Shown: in pieces, positions 1 through 52,035 of the stretch
Position numbering within the stretch: position 1 is the stretch's first letter
Layout: every line of letters begins with the position of its first letter
NCBI RefSeq assembly: GCF_006345805.1
Contig: NC_043000.1
Location: 97,154,001-97,218,000, forward strand
Reading direction: 5' to 3'
Length of the DNA: 64,000 nucleotides
DNA from: Octopus sinensis
Lineage: Eukaryota
Notes under the pieces: generated by a model
What the model was told of the DNA's origin: nothing
What the model saw: only the letters and a program-made list of their open reading frames with translations
The model's database searches: none
Program-made: the position numbers and the translations under genes

Positions 1-610
1 TTATTTTTCACCCTTTCTGGTTTCTTCTCCTCTCCCTTTCACCGTTCCTCCTCCTCCTCCCTCTCGTCGCTGACCAGAGGGCTACTAACTTTCTTTCTGT
101 CTACTGCCTTCAACAAGTCAATATCAGCTTTTCTGTCCTCGTAAGCCGTTCTTCATAATGCGTTCAAATGAATTTTTCCAGCGTCTAGGCTTTAAAAAGC
201 CCTTATTGTTGGTTTTCTTGTCCTGTCTTTTACTGTTTTCAACTTTATTTGTACTATTTTTTTCTTTATTTGTATTGCTTTTACGTCCTGTTCTTGTCAC
301 CTTTTTTTATCCCTCCGCAAAAAAAAAAAAATATTTAATTCGCTTTGCGAGAAGGACTGTTTCAACGTAGTCGTGTTATGCCCTTACCTTCGAAACACGC
401 AATGAGTCGAAACAGGGGCAGCTGAAGAAGGGGAATGTTCCTTGTGTTGTTTGTCTTGTACTCTGTTTTTTCGTTGTTAAAAAAGCCCGTTTCCTTGTTT
501 TGTTTTTATCTTTTCGTTTCTCGTTGTGTTCTACGTTTATTTGTGGTGTCCTGTACCCATATATGCATGTATATATACATATAGATGTAGGTATGTACAT
601 ATATGTATGT
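1..610 (+). mobile_element. Penelope-like terminal repeat (pLTR-like), family A, running into a (TA)-rich tract
   Basis: Pyrimidine-rich 5' part, CTGAAGAAGG motif at 422 and T-rich tail ending in TA repeats. Homologous to the minus-strand copy at 26820-27365 (shared TTTGCGAGAAGGACTGTTT and GTCCT(G/C)TACCCATATATGCATGTATAT). Same layout as the GIY-YIG-bearing element at 32225-33415; no ORF here. Confidence 0.55.
357..433 (+). ncRNA. Candidate permuted/pseudoknotted hammerhead ribozyme
   Basis: Stem III CGTGT(372-376)/ACACG(395-399) following GAA at 392; GUU triplet 375-377; stem I TGCCC(379-383)/GGGCA(416-420) with an A378.G421 mismatch; CTGAAGA 422-428; stem II CTTC(388-391)/GGGG(430-433) with two G.U pairs; outer helix CTGTTTC(357-363)/GAAACAG(409-415). 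Confidence 0.5.
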
Positions 611-649
611 ATTTATGCATATGTTTTATTTATTAACTTGTTATATATA

Positions 650-870
650 TTTATATATAAAAGTAAGGTTGTGTGTCTGTCTACTCCGATTTAGATTCAT
701 AACTACTCCCACATTTTGCGGTGCAGTTTAACCAAAACCGGGTATCTTATAGTCGTGATTCATATCAAGCCCTTCTACGATGAGTCTACGATTTTAAAAA
801 TAATTTACCATAATTTTTTTCCATTTTAATGCATATTTTTTTTAATATAAGGGAAGTAACTCTCTAAAAA
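650..870 (+). mobile_element. Non-autonomous Helitron-like element, 5' fragment
   Basis: TATATATAAAAG..GTTGTGTGTCTGTCT start. Highly similar to the minus-strand copy at 58910-59227, which begins TCTATATATATAAAACTG, a Helitron-type 5' TC end. No 3' hairpin/CTAG seen. Confidence 0.45.
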
Positions 871-8294: not shown

Positions 8295-10147
8295 CATAGA
8301 GACTGCAAGAGGAGGGAAAGTAACTTAGCCATCGACTATCGTAAGGCGTACGATATGATCCCACACTCTTGGATTATGGAGTGTATGAACCTATTTGGTA
8401 TTGCATCGAATGTTGAGCTATTGCTTGGAAAAAGTATGGCGAATTGGAGGACGAACCTGAGAGCATACAGAAGAAGTTTAGGGACTGTAGATATCAGGAG
8501 GGGCATCTTCCAAGGGGACTGCCTGTCCCCACTGATCTTTGTACTGTACTTGATACCACTAACACTGATTCTGAGGAAAGCAAAAGCTGGATAAGTATTC
8601 AAAAGCCGCCAACAAAATGTCAACCATTTGTTATTCATGGATGACCAAACTTTATGGTAAAGATGAAGCCCAAGTCAGTTCCCTCGTTGATACGGTGTAT
8701 ACTTTCAGTGTTGATATCAGAATGGAGTTCGACTGAGAAAGTGTGGTGTGATAGTCTTGAAGCGAGGCAAATTCAAATGTATGGACGGGCTATCAATACC
8801 GTCGGGGGAGGTTATGAAGCAGATAGAAGAGACGGGCTATAAGTACTTGGGGATTCTGGAAATGGATAAAATGATGGAGAAAGAAATGACAGAAAAATTT
8901 AAAGTGGAGTACTTGCGCAGACTGAGACTGATACTTAAGTCGAAATTAAACGGACGGAATAAGATCGAAGCTATCAACACCTGGGCGGTTTCACTCTTTA
9001 GATATGGAGTAGAGGTAATCAAATGGACAGTAGACGAACTAAACAGCTTAGACAGAAAGAGAAGGAAACTGCTAACTAGAAATGGAACACTCCACCCATA
9101 AAGTGACGCAGACATACTATATGTACCAAGAAAAAGAGGGGGAAGAGGGCTTATTGGATGCGAACACAGCATTAGAGCAAAAGAAAACAACATAGCATAG
9201 TATGTAAAAATGCCAAACAACCGCTATTATTAGAAGTAAGAAGGTCAGGCTTGTGTAGGATGAAAGATTGAAAAGTTAAAGCAATGTACAAGCAATTGAA
9301 AACGAATGAAACTGAAAATAGGTGGATAAAGAAGAGAATGCATGGACAATCTCATAGGGATGTTGAAGATAAGACATACAAAGAAAAAGGATGGCTGTAG
9401 ATGACTAAAAGTGATTTAAAACCGGAATCAGGCTCTAATCTGTGCTGCCCAAGTGTAAGCACTAAGAACAAATTACATAAAATACAGAATAGACAACACA
9501 TCAGAAAGTGATAAGAGCAGATTTTGTGGACAAAATGGTGAAACCAGTCAATGAATGCCACTAACCCAGAAGGAATGTAAGAGACGCCACGACAATATAG
9601 CAAGGCTTGTCCATTGGACACTTTGCAACAAGTATGGACTTAACAGAGCAAAAATTGGCACGACCACAAACCTGAAGGCATCATTGGAAATGATAATGCA
9701 AAGATCCTGTGTGATTTTATGATTCAGTGCAACCATGGGATAGAAAATAGGAAGCCAGACATAGTAGTAATTGAGAAAGAAAGCAAGCTATGCTGGATCA
9801 TAGATATAGCATGCCCAGCTGACAACAAGGTAAGCGATAAAGAAGAAAGAAAAGTCGATAGATATGACAGGTTAGCTTGGGAAGTTAAGCAGTTGTGGTC
9901 GATGAAAAAGGTGGTAGTAGTACCAATAATCGTTGGAGCCCTGGAAACAGCGAGTAAAAATCTTGAGAAGTACATAGAACAAATAGGGGCTGCAATAAGG
10001 GTGGAGCATTTGCAGAAAACAGCACTTCTTGGAGTCGCTCGAATACTCCGGATGGTGCTCCAAAAATAAGGGGTGTTACCTTAGTTCACTGGTAGTGAAC
10101 AGCTGACACCGTAGTACGTCTCCGGCGTTAGAAGCTGTGCAAATGCA
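8295..10147 (+). mobile_element. 5'-truncated R4/Dong-like RLE LINE, degenerate
   Basis: IDYRKAYDMIPH, RRGIFQGDCLSPLIF, HLLFMDD, YKYLG (RT); RHD and KPDIVV..IIDIACP (PD-(D/E)xK restriction-like endonuclease); stop at 10069, short 3'UTR, then (TAA)n. Confidence 0.9.
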
Positions 10148-10406
<259 letters not shown>

Positions 10407-12105
10407 AAAGACGATAATGAATTTGAAGGCCTATTGCGCAGTGTGAAAGCATTCAGCGATGACATCGGGATGGAGTTTGGGCTTGAGAAGTGTGCCAAGG
10501 CCACTTTCCAGAAAGGGAAAGTGAAGACCACAAATTCAGTCGTGTTAGATGTTGATACAGTCATAAGAGAGCTTGAGCAAGAATAAACATACAAATATTT
10601 ATGGATAAATGAAGACTCTGGTATTCAGCGTGCAAGCATGAAAGAGAAGATCAGGAAGGAATGTTATAGGAGAGATCGTGCAGTCCTGAAATCTGAACTA
10701 AATGCACGTAATAAGGTGTTAGCTATAAATTTCTTAGCGGTTCCAGTTGTTACTTATAGCTACAATGTGTTGAACTGGAATATGAGTGAAGTAAAGAATA
10801 TAGATAGGAAAATACGCAAGCTGCTGAGTTGTAATAGGATGCACCACCCAAAGGCAAACGTAGATCGCCTTTACCTTCCCAGAGTCCAAGGAGGTCGGGG
10901 TCTGATCCAATTTGAACTAGCTTACAAAACAACCACAATTGGACTGGCTAAATATCTTGAAATAACGAATGACTGGATGCTAAAGCTCGTGGAAAATCAC
11001 GAGAGACGAAAGAAGCTTTATTCTATCATAAAGGAAAGCAAAAAATTTGCTATTGATCTCGTGCAGGATACCCAAACTAAACAACCCGAGGGAAGTACAG
11101 CAACTATTGTTGCAAAGAAGGTGAAAATAATGGCAACGAAAAAAGCGCACGAGCAATTGGCTGATAGGTGGGAGGAGAAACCTCTGCACGGCAACTATGT
11201 GGCCCGTAGCAAACAAGCTGATGTTGACCAGAAGCAAACCCATCAGTGGCTACGGAGCTCAGGGCTAAAAGCAGAGAGCGAAGGTTTCATCCTGGCCGCT
11301 CAAGATCAAAGCCTATTAACCCGGAACTACCAGGCCAATGTGATGAAAAATGGAGCAGACCCAAAATGCCGATTCTGCAACGACATGATTGAAACAGTGG
11401 ACCACCTAATCTCTGGATGTGAAGTCTTAGCACCAGTGGAGTATAAATTAAGACATGACAGAGCTGTCCAATATCTACACTGGCTAATAAGTCGGCATTA
11501 CAATATCAAAACTGCCGACAAGTGGTATAATCACCACCCTGAAGCTGTAACTGAAGGAGAAAATGTAACGATTCTGTGGGACTTTCCAGTACATACAGAC
11601 CGAACCATCAAAGCCAATAAACCAGATATTGTTGTGAAAGACCAAAACAATAAAGTTTGCTTATTGATCGACATGAGCATCCCCTGTGATCATAATATCT
11701 CGGCGAAAGAGTTTGACAAGCTCAGAAAATATAAAGACCTGTTCATTGAAATTGAGAAAATGTGGCATCTCAAGGCGGTTATAATACCAGTGATCGTAGG
11801 AGGACGAGGAATGATCAAGAAGGGAACCGAAAATTATATGAGAATGATCCCTGGCTTACCATCCCTGCAAGAAGTGCAAAAGATTGTCTTAACTGGTACA
11901 TCACACGTATTGAGAAGAGCATTGTCGATGTGAGAACTATTACTACCCATGTATTTTAATTTAACTTTATTCCTATAAAAAAAAAATGAACGAGCTAGTG
12001 AGTTTAGTTTAATGGCCTACCAATGTAAACTATGAGTTTCTTTGCCCTAGGAGTCGGGAAGACACTCGGCAAGAAATGGAAGCAAATTTGAAAGAAGAGG
12101 AAAAA
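10407..12105 (+). mobile_element. 5'-truncated R4/Dong-like RLE LINE, young copy
   Basis: Begins inside RT (FSDDIGMEFGLEKCAK), continues through the 431-aa ORF and 3'UTR, and is flanked by TAA repeats. Near-identical to 50661-52035. Confidence 0.92.
10638..11933 (+). CDS. C-terminal part of a LINE ORF (RT thumb, CCHC zinc knuckle, RLE endonuclease); N-terminally truncated
   Basis: RLYLPRVQGGRGL, CRFCNDMIETVDHLISGC, RHD, KPDIVVKD..LIDMSIP..KLRKY motifs in an open 431-aa frame. Confidence 0.8.
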   Translation: MKEKIRKECYRRDRAVLKSELNARNKVLAINFLAVPVVTYSYNVLNWNMSEVKNIDRKIRKLLSCNRMHHPKANVDRLYLPRVQGGRGLIQFELAYKTTTIGLAKYLEITNDWMLKLVENHERRKKLYSIIKESKKFAIDLVQDTQTKQPEGSTATIVAKKVKIMATKKAHEQLADRWEEKPLHGNYVARSKQADVDQKQTHQWLRSSGLKAESEGFILAAQDQSLLTRNYQANVMKNGADPKCRFCNDMIETVDHLISGCEVLAPVEYKLRHDRAVQYLHWLISRHYNIKTADKWYNHHPEAVTEGENVTILWDFPVHTDRTIKANKPDIVVKDQNNKVCLLIDMSIPCDHNISAKEFDKLRKYKDLFIEIEKMWHLKAVIIPVIVGGRGMIKKGTENYMRMIPGLPSLQEVQKIVLTGTSHVLRRALSM

Positions 12106-24008: not shown

Positions 24009-24620
24009 AATACAAAAATGGGACAAGAATGCAACAGGCGAAAAAAAACATCCAGTCAGTTAGAGGATACAAAAAGGGGCAAGAAAAAACAAGGACGGGT
24101 CATTCGGAGATTTCCTTCCTCAGTCGTGTTCTAAATCATCTTTGCAGTTTCGTCTGGTTATACTCGAGACTGCTCCAATCTGGCCAACTCCAAAGAAAAA
24201 CTAAGCTAAGAGTACTAGATTCCTTGGCAGAAAGCAGTGAATGTATACGAAACAAGGACGAAAAAAACGGAGAAATGGTACACAAATACAAATGCAGACA
24301 ACAGGACATAACAAAAGGTGGCTTTCGACTAAGGACAAATTAAATTAAGCTGGTGTGTGTGGAAGTGAAGTCTTACGGCCGGGACATAAGAGATGACAGG
24401 CATGGGAAGGAATATAGATGTCGCACGGATGGTAGTCAAACCAAGAAAGAAAGGTCAGGCCTAGCAGAACACCGGTCACGTAGAAGTAGAGGCGAGAGGT
24501 AGAGGCAGAGGGATAGAAGAATTAGGGAGGGAAGAGAAAGAAAGAGAAAAGAAGAAAAGTGACAGAGTGAAGTGAAAGAGGAGAGAAGACGAGAATGAAG
24601 GGAAGGCCAAGGTGCGTGTA
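24005..24620 (-). mobile_element. Penelope-like terminal repeat (pLTR-like), family C
   Basis: Minus strand: CT-rich region, structured motif containing CTGAGGA, T-rich tail ending in (TA)n. Layout matches the other pLTRs; no ORF. Confidence 0.5.
24114..24183 (-). ncRNA. Candidate permuted/pseudoknotted hammerhead ribozyme
   Basis: Minus strand: CCAGATT-GGA-GCAGT-C-TCGAGT-ATAACCAGAC-GAA-ACTGC-AAAGAT-GATTTAG-A-ACACGA-CTGAGGA-AGG. Stem III is a perfect 5 bp, GUC triplet, stem I 5/6 pairs, outer helix 6/7 pairs; stem II is only ~1 bp in this copy. Confidence 0.55.
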
Positions 24621-25686: not shown

Positions 25687-25733
<47 letters not shown>

Positions 25734-25740
25734 ATATATA

Positions 25741-26726
25741 ATATTGTGTAACCTCACAGGTAAAAATCACATGGAGTGAGATCTGAACTGGACTTCTGCG
25801 GTCACAGTCTTCAGGTTTTAGCGCCAGCATGTAACGGGGTTTCTACGAACGAAAATTCAGTTCTTTATGCAACATTGTACGTATTGTGTGTCTTGTTAGT
25901 CCATTTTCAAGCTGCTTGACGTGTTGTCTTTGCGGGCTGCGATTAAACATTTTCTGCACTGTTACCACGTTCTACACTGATTAGGATGTGGTTGGACGGC
26001 CACTTCTCCTTGCATCGTTTACAGAGCCCGTGATCATCAGCTTTGCATGACAACTTTTTATTGTTTCCAGACGTAGCGTTGCATGCTTACCTATTTATGT
26101 ACACCACCGTCTCTGAACCAAAACAATAGAATTCCACACTTCATAGCATGCTATCTTAGCTCGCTCCTGAACAGTCAAGCAACTGGCCACTAGGAAAATA
26201 AGAAATAAGATATAATGCATGAAAATAAAATATCCCCTATTTTATTTTCATGCCTTATTTCTTATTTCTTATTTTCCTAGTGGCCAGTTGCTTGACTGTT
26301 CAGGAGCGAGCTAAGATAGCATGCTATGAAGTGTGGAATTCTATTGTTTTGGTTCAGAGACGGTGGTTGTACATAAATAGGTAAGCATGCAACGCTACGT
26401 CTGGAAACAATAAAAAGTTGTCATGCAAAGCTGATGATCACGGGCTCTGTAAAAACGATGCAAGGAGAAGTGGCCGTCCAACCACATCCTAATCAGTGTA
26501 GAACGTGGTAACAGTGCAGAAAATGTTTAATCGCAGCCCGCAAAGACACACGTCAGCAGCTTGAAAATGGACTAACAAGACACACAATACGTACAATGTT
26601 GCGTAAAGAACTGAATTTTCGTTCGTAGAAACCCCGTTACATGCAGGCGCTAAAACCTGAAGAGTGTGACCGCAGAAGTCCAGTTCAGATCTCACTCCAT
26701 GTGATTTTTACCTGTGAGGTTACACA

Positions 26727-26730
<4 letters not shown>
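25741..26730. repeat. ~990-bp near-perfect palindrome bounded by (TA)n
   Basis: ATATTGTGTAACCTCACAGG... / ...CCTGTGAGGTTACACAATAT; centre GAAAATAAAATA-TCCCC-TATTTTATTTTC near 26235; a few substitutions and indels between arms. Confidence 0.92.
26280..26680 (+). pseudogene. Tc1/mariner-superfamily transposase N-terminal (DUF4817-like HTH) fragment; mirror copy on - at ~25795-26190
   Basis: Frameshifted translation ASCLTVQERAKIACYEVWNSIVLVQRRW..KHATLRLETIKSCHAKLMITGSV.DARRSGRPTTS..MFNRSP..GLTRHTIRTMLRKELNF..KPRYMQALKPEECDRR. Confidence 0.7.
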
Positions 26731-26795
<65 letters not shown>

Positions 26796-26819: not shown

Positions 26820-27365
26820 CTGTACATACCTACATATATATGTTATATACATGCATATATGGGTAGAGGACATCAAAAGACATGAACAAATGAGAAACGA
26901 AAACATACAAAAACAATATCATAGAAAACGAACTTTTTTTCGAAAAACGAAAGTAAAATTAGAGAAACGAGACAGGCAACATAAAGAACATTCCCTTCAT
27001 CAGTTGTCCACTGTTTTATCTACTCCGCGACTTAGTTAAAACAGTCCTTCTCGCAAACCAAATTAAATAAAATTTGGGATTTTTGGGGGAGGGTTTAAGT
27101 GGTAACAAAAAAAGGACAGTAAGAACAAAACAGTAAAAACAAACGGTGAGGGTTAAGCCAAGACGGTGTGAAGTGGTGAATGCTGGAAAAACGAGCTTTG
27201 AGGAGAGAGGTAAACGCACGTCTTGTCTTTTGGAAGGAAGTAGAAGCAAGAAAGATAGATAGCCGTTGCTCACGTGTGAGCAACGAGAGTCAAGGAGGAG
27301 GAGTGAGAGAGAGAGAGAAGCGGGAGAACGGTGAAGGGGAGAGGAGAAAAATAGGGAAAGAGTGG
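26820..27365 (-). mobile_element. Penelope-like terminal repeat family A, second copy with internal deletion
   Basis: Homologous to 1-610. Keeps the helix ACTGTTTTA/TAAAACAGT and GGACAA-CTGATGA-AGGG but lacks the ~26 nt carrying the UH and GAAA strands. Confidence 0.6.
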
Positions 27366-32224: not shown

Positions 32225-33415
32225 GTTGAAATTTATAGAAAAGCAAAAGACGAAGACAGATGTAGGAAAAACAAGCAAGTGTGTTAGTGTAACGCTCGGG
32301 CAAATGAAAAAGCATTTTACACTTCGAGCCTACGCTCTTGAACATAAAGAAATAAAAGAAAATAAACAGAGAGGATGAAAAATCTTGTGGATTTCAGCGG
32401 TCCGGTGAATGATTGGAAATGAGAGGTTGAAAGAAAGGGAGATAATAAAATAGATAGAATGAAAGAGAGACAATTAAGTGCTACTGATTCTAAGAGATGG
32501 TGCTCGTGCGTGTGTGCATGAGAGAATTGAATGTGAGTGTGTGTGTGTGAATAGGGGTGAGTGACTCTGACGTGTGAGTGTGTACGTTTGTAACGCGCGC
32601 GTTTGTTTATTTGTGTGTGTGTGTGCGTGTCTGTGTTGTGTGCGTCTGTGCCGAAACAGTGTGCGTATGTATGGTGTATATATTGGGCGAAAAGCTATCT
32701 CTGTCTATGTTGCGTGTTGCGTGTCTATGTAAATAGCCTTTGTCCAGATATTATGTGCTTGTGTGGGGTGCGAGTGTGTATGATGTGTAGTGTGTGAACG
32801 GAGTTAAACAGTGTGTGTGGCTGCTCCTATTGAGGTATGTTGGTGACGCTATTGAAAACTGTGGGTGTGTGGATGATGGTGTGCGGTGTGGATCCTGGGC
32901 AGTGATCAGTGCTAGTGTGCGTGAAGTTGTGTGGAATTGGTATCAAAGGAAGAGAGGAGGTGAGGTTGGTGTCAGATGAAGAGAGGAGGTGAGTTGGGCC
33001 CATGTGGCGCAAAGGAGCGAAGAGAGAAGATTAATTCTGTTCACGGCGAAGGCAAGAGTCCGAATGGCTCCTGTGCAAAGACAGTCCGAACACAAGCAGA
33101 TGATGTAGCGAATAACTGGTAGAGTAAAAATGGCGAGAGACCGGGGTTTGATTGCCGAGTCTGATGTCTCGGAGGTGCTCTCCGAACCAGTCAGCCAAGC
33201 GGCCTCCCGTTTCACCGCTGTACAGCGAAGGAAAAAGAGAGCAGGATGTGCGGTAAATGACGTTACTGGAAGTGCAAGTAAAGGAGTCGGTGATGTGATA
33301 GGGACGATGATGGGTGGGCATGGGGGTGTTGGAGAGGATGGGACATGCACGACAGCGTGGGCGGAAGCAGGGGAACGAGCCAGGCTGTGAGGTGGGGTTA
33401 GGGAAGAAACTGTGG
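32225..33415 (-). mobile_element. 5'-truncated Penelope-like element: GIY-YIG endonuclease end plus pLTR
   Basis: GIY-YIG remnant followed by a CT/CA-rich UTR, a decayed HHR (AGAGC-GTAG-GCTC-GAAG near 32320-32345) and a tail homologous to 36005-36192. Confidence 0.85.
32975..33410 (-). pseudogene. Penelope-type GIY-YIG endonuclease fragment
   Basis: CFRPRCRACP...FTCTSSNVIYRTSCSLFPSLYSGETGGRLADWFGEHLRDIR...VSRHF...LRREQN*LIFSLRSFAPHGPN. Confidence 0.85.
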
Positions 33416-33447
33416 ACCAGGAGGTATACACACACACAAACACACAC

Positions 33448-33481
<34 letters not shown>

Positions 33482-33600
33482 CATACACCCCACACACTTA
33501 TACACAAGTTTACCTGTATATATGTAAACTTATTTGCATTACCTAACACCTTTGAGTCTTCTTGATACCATTACTTCTCGTAACCTATATATATGTAGTA

Positions 33601-50373: not shown

Positions 50374-50600
50374 AATAATAATAATAATAATCCTTTCTAA
50401 TATAAGCACATAGCCTAGAATTTTGGGGGAGGTGACTAATCGCTTTCATCGACTCCACTGATTTACTGGTACTTAAGTTATCGAGCTCGAAATGATGAAA
50501 GGCAAAGTCGACCTCGGTGGAATTTGAACTTAGAACGTAAAGACAGGCGAAATGCTGCTAAGCATTTTCTCCGGCGTACTAACAATTCTACAAGTTCGCC

Positions 50601-50660
<60 letters not shown>

Positions 50661-52035
50661 TCCTCAGCAGTCCCAGTTGTTACTTATAGCTACAATGTGT
50701 TGAACTGGAATATGAGTGAAGTAAAGAATATAGATAGGAAAATACGCAAGCTGCTGAGTTGTAATAGGATGCACCACCCAAAGGCAGACGTAGATCGCCT
50801 TTACCTTCCCAGAGCCCAAGGAGGTCGAGGCCTGATCCAATTTGAACTAGCTTACAAAACAACCACAATTGGACTGGCCAAATATCTCGAAATATCGAAT
50901 GACTGGATGCTAAAGCTCGTGGAAAATCACGAGAGACGAAAGAAGCTTCATTCTATCATAAAGGAAAGCAAAAAATTTGCTATTGATCTCGTGCAGGATA
51001 CCCAAACTGAACAACCCGAGGGAAGTACGGCAATTATTGTTGCAAAGAAGGTGAAATAATGGCAACGAAAAAAGCGCACGAGCAATTGGCTGATAGGTGG
51101 GAGGAGAAACCTCTGCATGGCAATATGTGGCCCGTAGCAAACAAGCTGATGTTGACCAGAAGCAAACCCATCAGTGGCTACGGAGCTCAGGGCTAAAAGC
51201 AGAGAGCGAAGGTTTCATCCTGGCTGCTCAAGATCAAAGCCTATTAACCCGGAACTACCAGGCCAATGTGATGAAAAATGGAGCAGACCCAAAATGCCGA
51301 TTCTGCAACGACATGATTGAAACAGTGGACCACCCAATCTCTGGATGTAAAGTTTTAGCCCCAGTGGAGTATAAATTAAGACATGACAGAGTTGGCCAAT
51401 ATCTACACTGGCTAATAAGTCGGCATTACAATATCAAAACTGCCGACAAGTGGTATAATCACCACCCTGAAGCTGTAACTGAAGGAGAAAATGTAACGAT
51501 TCTGTGGGACTCTCCAGTACATACAGACCGAACCATCAAAGCCAATAAACCGGATATTGTTGTGAAAGACCAAAACAATAAAGTTTGCTTATTGATCGAC
51601 GTGAGCATCCCCTGTGATCATAATATCTCGGCGAAAGAATTTGACAAGCTCAGAAAATATAAAGACTTGCTCATTGAAATTGAGAAAATGTGGCATCTCA
51701 AGGCGGTTTCAATACCAGTGATCGTAGGAGCACTAGAAATGAACAAGAAGGGAACCGAAAATTATATGAGAATGATCCCTGGCTTACCATCCCTGCAAGA
51801 AGTGCAAAAGATTGTCTTAACTGGTACATCACACGTATTGAGAAGAGCATTGTCTATGTGAGAACTATTACTACCCATGTATTTTAATTTAACTTTATTC
51901 CAATAAAAAAAAAAATGAACGAACTAGTGAGTTTAGTTTAATGGCCTACCAATGTATACAATGAGTTTCTTTGCCCTAGGAGTCGGGAAGACACTCGGCA
52001 AGATATTGGAAGCAAATTTGAAAGAAGAAGAAAAA
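50661..52035 (+). mobile_element. 5'-truncated R4/Dong-like LINE, same young family as 10407-12105
   Basis: ORFs 50697-51059 and 51097-51861 are near-identical to the 431-aa ORF but broken by 1-nt deletions; starts directly after (TAA)n. Confidence 0.92.

What the first reader, a model, noticed from the sequence alone, without database searches (positions are those of the whole stretch)
357..433. Second, unrelated family shows the same permuted hammerhead layout
Seen: the primary sequence differs from family C, yet order and spacing match: outer helix CTGTTTC/GAAACAG, stem III CGTGT/ACACG directly after GAA, GUU triplet, stem I TGCCC/GGGCA just before G-CTGAAGA, stem II CTTC/GGGG after an extra A. 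Spacings are H17-to-GAAA 14 nt (16 in family C) and stem III-to-CUGA 22 nt (20 in family C). Inference: different helix sequences with a conserved core and geometry argue for structural selection rather than chance. The first stem I pair is mismatched (A378.G421), so this copy may be inactive.
Basis: partly seen in the sequence, partly recalled or inferred. Interest (0 to 1): 0.85.

Follow-up and report, generated by a model that had tools for sequence, protein, structure and literature searches.

The report
Split scrambled hammerhead in Naiad retroelements
Thousands of jumping-gene copies in this octopus-like genome carry the parts of a hammerhead self-cutting RNA in a scrambled order that I did not find described in print, and copy ends pile up right at the predicted cut, so it likely cuts the element's RNA and would be the missing ribozyme of Naiad retroelements.

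Summary
The motif is real. Its block order (cut site, GAAA, CUGAnGA) is that of the non-circular "type-SGC" hammerheads of Eckert 2023, known only from metatranscriptomes. The chain therefore appears opened between A9 and G10.1, outside Eckert's six arrangements. Stems I, III and the I-II helix covary (154 two-sided cells vs 57 shuffled). A378 is copy-specific (C in 45 of 48). The motif lies in an ~800-bp non-coding Penelope-like element and in the 3' UTR of published Naiad retroelements, reported to lack hammerheads; read by eye, the same form occurs in coral, box-jelly and acanthocephalan Naiads and type-CSG in nematode ones. Insertion 5' ends pile up just 3' of the predicted cut (25 vs 3, p=2e-4; family C 10 vs 1, p=0.015; Naiad copies 0 of 30). 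Cleavage is untested. This scan earlier noted type-CSG hammerheads near Penelope-like elements on other DNA, not this split form.

The parts
1..650 (+). Family A non-coding Penelope-like element (unit begins about 130 bp upstream of the window; ends at about 650 in TA-rich repeat)
   Evidence: Copies share a fixed 3' end near 650, are 5'-truncated, form partial tandems and 5' inverted copies; 11 of 29 loci L002-L030 carry a ~40-bp tail beyond the 3' end; no long ORF
351..355 (+). Strand a: proposed 5' strand of stem II, starting with G10.1
   Evidence: 5 Watson-Crick pairs with 387-391; 95.7% of cells paired in 47 sequences; equivalent helix with other sequence in family C (92%) and Naiad copies (95%)
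357..363 (+).
   Evidence: 6 of 7 pairs have two-sided changes across subfamilies
372..377 (+). Block S: stem III strand, U16.1 (376) and H17 (377); predicted cut between 377 and 378
   Evidence: 3 of 5 pairs with two-sided changes; 377 is U or C in 48 of 48 family A copies; 5' ends of insertions stop at 378
378..383 (+). Strand d of stem I (A378 is a copy-specific change)
   Evidence: C at 378 in 45 of 48 copies; 5 of 6 pairs with two-sided changes
387..399 (+). Block G: strand a' of stem II (387-391, C11.1=391), GAAA (392-395), stem III strand c' (395-399)
409..415 (+). Strand b' of the interaction helix
416..428 (+). Strand d' of stem I (416-421) and CUGAAGA core (422-428)
   Evidence: core letters kept in 47-48 of 48 BLAST-selected copies except N7 (426), which varies
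429..433 (+).
   Evidence: 0.0 kcal/mol; no two-sided change
24117..24189 (-). Family C copy of the same architecture, unrelated helix sequences
26967..27065 (-). Family A-related copy with the S and G blocks deleted

Best explanation
This is likely a self-cleaving hammerhead ribozyme folded as a four-helix pseudoknot, in which the stem II strand that normally follows the CUGAnGA core is instead predicted to come from a strand upstream of the cut site, and it would cut the RNA of Naiad-type Penelope-like elements between 377 and 378. Order: a-b, linker, stem III strand-UH, cut, stem I strand, short linker, a'-GAAA-stem III strand, linker, b'-stem I strand-CUGAnGA. It is a circular permutation of the type-SGC/CSG ring opened between A9 and G10.1. 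Shown: the strands, their complementarity, covariation, the host elements, the pile-up of insertion ends. Inferred: the 3D fold, cleavage, and that reverse transcriptase runs off the 5' end of the cut RNA to give short insertions starting at 378-390, while uncut or circularised RNA gives longer and tandem copies.
For: (1) 47 sequences across subfamilies: 91.9% of cells paired, 154 two-sided cells vs 56.8 +/- 8.8 shuffled, 0 of 500 shuffles as high; slid controls 39-49%. (2) Family C: pair 16.2-15.2 is A-U in 28 and G-C in 8 of 38 copies, Fisher p=2e-7 (13 vs 12 of 29). (3) Upstream stem II is complementary with four different sequences: family A, family C (6 bp), Naiad (6 bp), L169 (5 bp), always opening with G-C. 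(4) Full motif lies downstream and sense of Naiad-like RT remnants in 5 of 30 loci, antisense in 0, and about 80 nt from the 3' end of published Naiad_Obim and Naiad_Ovul. (5) First 100 copies chosen by a pattern 3' of the motif: 25 5' ends in 378-399 vs 3 in 356-377 (p=1.8e-4); 17 in 378-388, 3 exactly at 378, 4 in 330-377. Family C: 10 ends in +1..+22 vs 1 in -21..0, p=0.015, one at +1. (6) Type-SGC and CSG RNAs with the same helices cleave in vitro (PMC10085705). (7) PLE hammerheads keep an extra base between positions 9 and 10.1 (PMC4209133), so that junction tolerates a bulge.
Against: No cleavage assay and no RNA-end data. Stem II does not covary inside any one family (helix 1; Naiad set shows no covariation above shuffles), only between families. 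Copies are related, so cell counts overstate events, and 'pairs with a change on both sides' (14) is reached by 33 of 500 shuffles. 0 of 30 Naiad copies start between the cut and GAAA (by eye). 7 of the 17 ends in 378-388 had already been seen when the idea arose; one end at 378 (L353) is an inversion through stem I complementarity; one pair at 397 is a duplicate. Nested folding favours other hairpins and gives z=0.15; it cannot score pseudoknots. In family A 427-431 can also pair with 387-391 and would bury G8 and A9. In another PLE, ribozyme mutants did not affect insertion in vitro and no RNA ends were seen at the cut (PMC11167929).
Confidence: 0.72

Rival explanations
1. It is an ordinary type-SGC hammerhead: G10.1 comes from the bases after the core (one extra base, then GG), stem II is only 1-4 pairs, and the upstream strand is a folding switch or a helper stacked on it.
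For: Family A keeps four pairs (two G-U) in 96% of cells; A, Naiad and L169 all have WGG after the core; stem II can be as short as two pairs (PMC3088659); Eckert's SGC-1 oligos show one extra base then GG.
Against: 27% paired in family C, 68% in Naiad copies; 0.0 vs -4.6 kcal/mol; coral, box-jelly and acanthocephalan Naiads have no G in the two bases after the core (by eye); helix b covaries with the upstream strand, and by eye not with the 3' tail. WGG was required by the pattern.
Confidence: 0.13
2. The fold is hammerhead-derived but does not cut in cells; it is a binding or pausing signal for the element's reverse transcriptase, and 5' ends cluster because the enzyme stalls or finds TA microhomology near 385.
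For: Many ends lie at 385-388 next to TTA; an upstream hairpin ending near 381 is predicted in copy L049; Naiad copies show no pile-up; PLE ribozymes can be slow or dispensable in vitro.
Against: All catalytic letters are kept while helices change; only H17 (U/C/A) and N7 vary; all four helices are already unwound when the enzyme reaches 378-388; the edge falls at the predicted cut in two unrelated families.
Confidence: 0.12
3. A nested hairpin beside an incidental CTGANGA, copied by a repeat.
For: No Rfam hammerhead match; folding z-score 0.15.
Against: Covariation in three mutually crossing helices, same layout in unrelated families and in other phyla. Rfam models are nested and cannot match this order (own knowledge).
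Confidence: 0.02

Closest known systems
Type-SGC hammerhead ribozymes (HRIMA-1 and variants; Eckert et al. 2023, PMC10085705)
   Same: Block order S-G-C, short linker between stem I and stem II strands, a helix joining the far ends of stems I and II, full core.
   Different: There the stem II strand and interaction strand follow the core; here both lie 5' of block S, which splits 'block C' that the paper assumed indivisible. Theirs were found only in metatranscriptomes, none in genomes of known organisms; here thousands of genomic copies in an animal retroelement.
Type-CSG hammerheads (CSG-1, CSG-2; same paper)
   Same: Same pseudoknotted ring, opened elsewhere; by eye it is the form in nematode Naiads.
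   Different: Core stays joined to stem II; two metagenomic examples only in the paper.
Naiad Penelope-like elements (Craig et al. 2021, PMC8557442)
   Same: 5' truncation, partial tandems, inverted 5' copy, 30-40 bp tail, (TA)n targets; identical stem I (CTGCCC/GGGCAG) in family A and the octopus Naiad consensus.
   Different: Reported to lack canonical hammerheads, with unexplained 'core' and 'half-core' notes; family A has no ORF and no alignable 3' UTR outside the motif, so its mobiliser is inferred.
Type I hammerheads of Penelope-like elements and non-LTR retrozymes (PMC4209133; bioRxiv 10.64898/2026.07.22.740005)
   Same: Ribozyme inside the repeat of a PLE or of a non-autonomous tandem unit (813/816-bp tandem).
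   Different: Those are canonical C-G-S order, often minimal and dimeric; this one is monomeric and pseudoknotted.

Membership tests
Hammerhead ribozyme | Core CUGAnGA, GAAA and UH flanked by stems I, II, III | tested here: met
Hammerhead ribozyme | Stems supported by compensatory change | tested here: met
   stems I, III and interaction helix within the A superfamily; stem II only between families
Hammerhead ribozyme | Self-cleavage 3' of H17 | not testable with these tools
   indirect only: 5' ends of insertions stop at the predicted site
Canonical types I, II, III | Circular order C-G-S without pseudoknots | tested here: not met
   order is S-G-C; no Rfam hammerhead hit
Type-SGC (Eckert 2023) | Block order S, G, C with short stem I to stem II linker | tested here: met
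   3-nt linker 384-386
Type-SGC (Eckert 2023) | Stem II strand directly 3' of CUGAnGA (intact block C) | tested here: not met
   27% paired in family C, 68% in Naiad copies; only a weak G-U-rich option in family A
Type-SGC (Eckert 2023) | Helix joining far ends of stems I and II | tested here: met
   357-363/409-415, covarying, but supplied from the 5' side
Penelope-like element insertion | 5' truncation, partial tandem, inverted 5' copy, 30-40 bp tail, (TA)n target | tested here: met
Naiad (autonomous) | ORF with N-terminal GIY-YIG and C-terminal RT | tested here: not met
   family A unit has no ORF; Naiad-like RT remnants in G000 carry a sister motif, not family A
Non-LTR retrozyme | Abundant circular monomer RNA | not testable with these tools
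   tandem of 813/816 bp seen; no RNA data for circles

The most novel reading that the evidence does not exclude
Naiad retroelements across animal phyla are the genomic home of non-circularly permuted hammerheads: a seventh, core-split arrangement (chain open between A9 and G10.1) in cephalopods, cnidarians and an acanthocephalan, and type CSG in nematodes; it cuts in vivo and sets the 5' ends of thousands of octopus insertions.
Probability: 0.6. Interest if true: 0.9.

Novelty: new variant of a known kind. Interest (0 to 1): 0.82.

Why it matters
It would explain why the Naiad clade seemed to lack the hammerheads of other Penelope-like elements (the searches used canonical order), give the rare non-circular hammerheads a host and a job in animal genomes, and show that the catalytic core need not be covalently joined to stem II. 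The pile-up of insertion ends at the cut is genomic evidence on an open question, whether PLE ribozymes cut the RNA that gets copied. All of it can be tested with a 100-nt transcript.

Tried and rejected
Rfam scans: whole window, top 150 of 321 rows shown, all microsatellite-driven miRNA matches below threshold; 250-540, 3 weak unrelated hits. Repeat finders were swamped by microsatellites. Pfam gave nothing for the L170 RT remnant or the window ORF 33034-33570; a PLE Pfam accession I recalled was not in the library. No autonomous element with family A or C sequence was found: no RT motif tied to those loci, no family A similarity to the Naiad 3' UTR outside the motif, and none of 30 Naiad-RT loci carried an A or C motif. 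Runs: no RNA holder on record was listed; contigs of 4 runs guessed to be RNA cover related copies, mostly with C at 378 and higher depth 3' of about 385, but without a DNA comparison and from contigs this says nothing on expression or ends. A 3'-tail version of helix b was considered and dropped: by eye it fails in subfamily B. A dimeric canonical fold from tandem copies was dropped because it needs the same weak 3' stem II. The first 5'-end count was confounded by microsatellites; one search collapsed 13 copies and was redone on all 100. A read of Forgia 2023 passages showed no matching variant.

Full report
Observation. An S-G-C descriptor finds 2 sites in the window and at least one in 5 of 100 shuffles; adding two upstream helices leaves the 377 site and 3 of 40 shuffles with a hit. 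In 48 BLAST-selected family A sequences position 378 is C in 45, A in 2, so the stem I mismatch belongs to this copy; 377 is U (39) or C (9); the core is nearly fixed except N7.

Known kind. The order cut site, GAAA, CUGAnGA is type SGC of Eckert et al. 2023 (PMC10085705; I read parts 2-5 of 8 of the text and supplement passages). They validated cleavage, described a helix joining the far ends of stems I and II, assumed that CUGAnGA stays joined to its stem II strand, and found SGC only in metatranscriptomes and CSG in two metagenomic sequences.

What differs. The strand before GAAA (387-391) is the perfect complement of 351-355, directly followed by the 'outer helix'. The same upstream pairing, with other letters and always opening with G-C, is present in family C (6 bp, 92% of cells in 29 sequences), in Naiad 3' ends (6 bp, 95% in 24 of the 30 loci held) and in single locus L169. 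The strand after the core pairs in 27% and 68% of cells there. So the layout is a-b, S, G, b'-d'-core: the SGC/CSG ring opened between A9 and G10.1. The two linkers face each other between helix b and stem III, bridging the same two helix ends that the 0-44 nt linker bridges in type SGC (inference). In family A alone the weak 3' helix remains possible (96% paired, two G-U, no two-sided change).

Covariation. I aligned 47 sequences picked to span subfamilies out of the 161 pattern hits plus family A loci; 5'-truncated and near-identical ones were left out, and for pattern-derived rows the core is fixed by construction. Result: 91.9% paired, 154 two-sided cells against 56.8 +/- 8.8, 0 of 500 shuffles; slid controls 39-49%; 14 of 23 pairs have two-sided changes (33 of 500 shuffles reach that); stem II itself has none. 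Relatedness inflates such counts. Family C switches one stem III pair between A-U and G-C. The Naiad set shows complementarity but no covariation above shuffles.

Host. Family A copies share a 3' end near 650, vary at the 5' end, lie in (TA)n, form partial tandems and inverted 5' copies, and 11 of 29 carry a ~40-bp tail: the insertion anatomy of Penelope-like elements in Craig et al. 2021 (PMC8557442; section 6, passages, supplement parts 12 and 24 whole and search passages). No ORF is present. A subfamily B tandem has 813/816-bp units. The GAAA..core half has 7,209 matches (control 136); a pattern 3' of it 3,184 (control 0); family C 689 and 294. Craig et al. report that Naiads lack canonical hammerheads and mark some as 'core' or 'half core'. 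The published Naiad_Obim and Naiad_Ovul carry the split motif about 80 nt from their 3' end with the same stem I as family A; its pattern has 318 matches in G000, control 0, which also suggests an octopus genome. The full motif lies downstream and sense of Naiad-like RT remnants in 5 of 30 loci (a sixth degenerate), antisense in none, with a 1.5-kb flank that often falls short of the UTR end.

Other phyla, read by eye from supplement passages and not computed; names come from adjacent headers and table order. Split form with four good helices: Naiad_Amil, _Aacu, _Anas (corals), Naiad-2_Movir (box jelly), Naiad_Plae (acanthocephalan), and unnamed passages in parts 9 and 19; weaker in Naiad_Bfor (short stem I) and a part 25 passage. 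Type CSG: Naiad-2_Nbra, Naiad-3_Nbra and unnamed passages in parts 13-16. No motif seen at the ends of Naiad_Dcar and Naiad_Omin. I saw only part of the more than 50 entries; unseen ones may differ.

Footprint of cutting. Taking the first 100 copies found by a pattern at 444-467, independent of the ribozyme, 59 had a mapped 5' end, 27 ran through and 14 had internal deletions. Ends per base per copy rise from 0.0014 (415-443) to 0.0217 (378-388) and fall to 0.0023 (356-377) and 0.0007 (330-355); three ends are at 378. Windows of 22 nt either side of the predicted cut hold 25 and 3 ends (p=1.8e-4). Ten of the 17 ends in 378-388 were new relative to the sample that raised the idea. In 59 family C copies, 10 ends fall in +1..+22 (one internal deletion removed by eye) and 1 in -21..0 (p=0.015), though 5 fall in -47..-27, two of them a duplicate. 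Against: 0 of 30 Naiad copies begin between the cut and GAAA. Boundaries are uncertain by a few bases where TA microhomology occurs.

Mechanism. Most likely the element RNA folds the four-helix pseudoknot and cuts after 377; the encoded-in-trans reverse transcriptase starts near 650 (internal start sites as in PMC11167929, passages) and runs off the cut end, giving ~270-bp insertions; uncut or ligated monomers give long and tandem copies (model of PMC4209133, part 2 of 4). Fold, cleavage and mobiliser are inferred.

Novelty. Searches 'type-SGC'+hammerhead, 'non-circular permutation'+hammerhead, Naiad+hammerhead+Penelope-like and searches listed no paper with this arrangement or with permuted hammerheads in Naiads; passages of the 2026 retrozyme preprint (its supplements are closed), the 2026 octopus repeat annotation, PMC13725137, PMC10162972 and PMC3088659 did not mention it. 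The library lacks most subscription papers. Earlier notes of this scan report type-CSG and permuted hammerheads near Penelope-like elements and a twister in a clam Naiad on other genomes; none by sequence or place here. Verdict: new variant of a known kind, high interest, cleavage untested.

Noticed in passing
L033:492-598 (minus; about 900-1000 bp upstream of the window start): Inverted subfamily B copy of the same element, 73% identical, with compensatory helix b and stem I but C3 changed to G; a 91-bp inverted fragment of the family A motif also lies 170-260 bp upstream.
   Followed up: partly
about 100 bp upstream of the window to window 77: GTAAGT donor-like site, pyrimidine tract and CTGACCAG acceptor-like site inside the family A unit, suggesting the retained intron typical of Penelope-like elements; not tested.
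   Followed up: no
L290 (G000:C224:8000-17000): Head-to-tail tandem of three subfamily B units spaced 813 and 816 bp, 97% identical: retrozyme-like array.
   Followed up: partly
L169:2916-3048 (minus): A fourth family with the split layout and its own helix sequences; only one copy examined.
   Followed up: partly
L353, L320/L273, L171: Inversion junctions fall at stem I or just before strand a', hinting that cDNA ends at the cut fold back through ribozyme complementarity.
   Followed up: no
window 25698-26773: Long inverted repeat (219-nt arms 96% complementary, near-palindromic interior) between (TA)n tracts, next to the deleted family A-related copy.
   Followed up: no
window 8715-11930 and 50583-51858: Fragments of RT-like ORFs of a non-LTR element (label by recall of motifs, not tested).
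   Followed up: no
Craig 2021 supplement, part 17 passage: A Naiad 3' region with blocks S, G and C in SGC order and a long insertion between S and G; stem II unclear.
   Followed up: no
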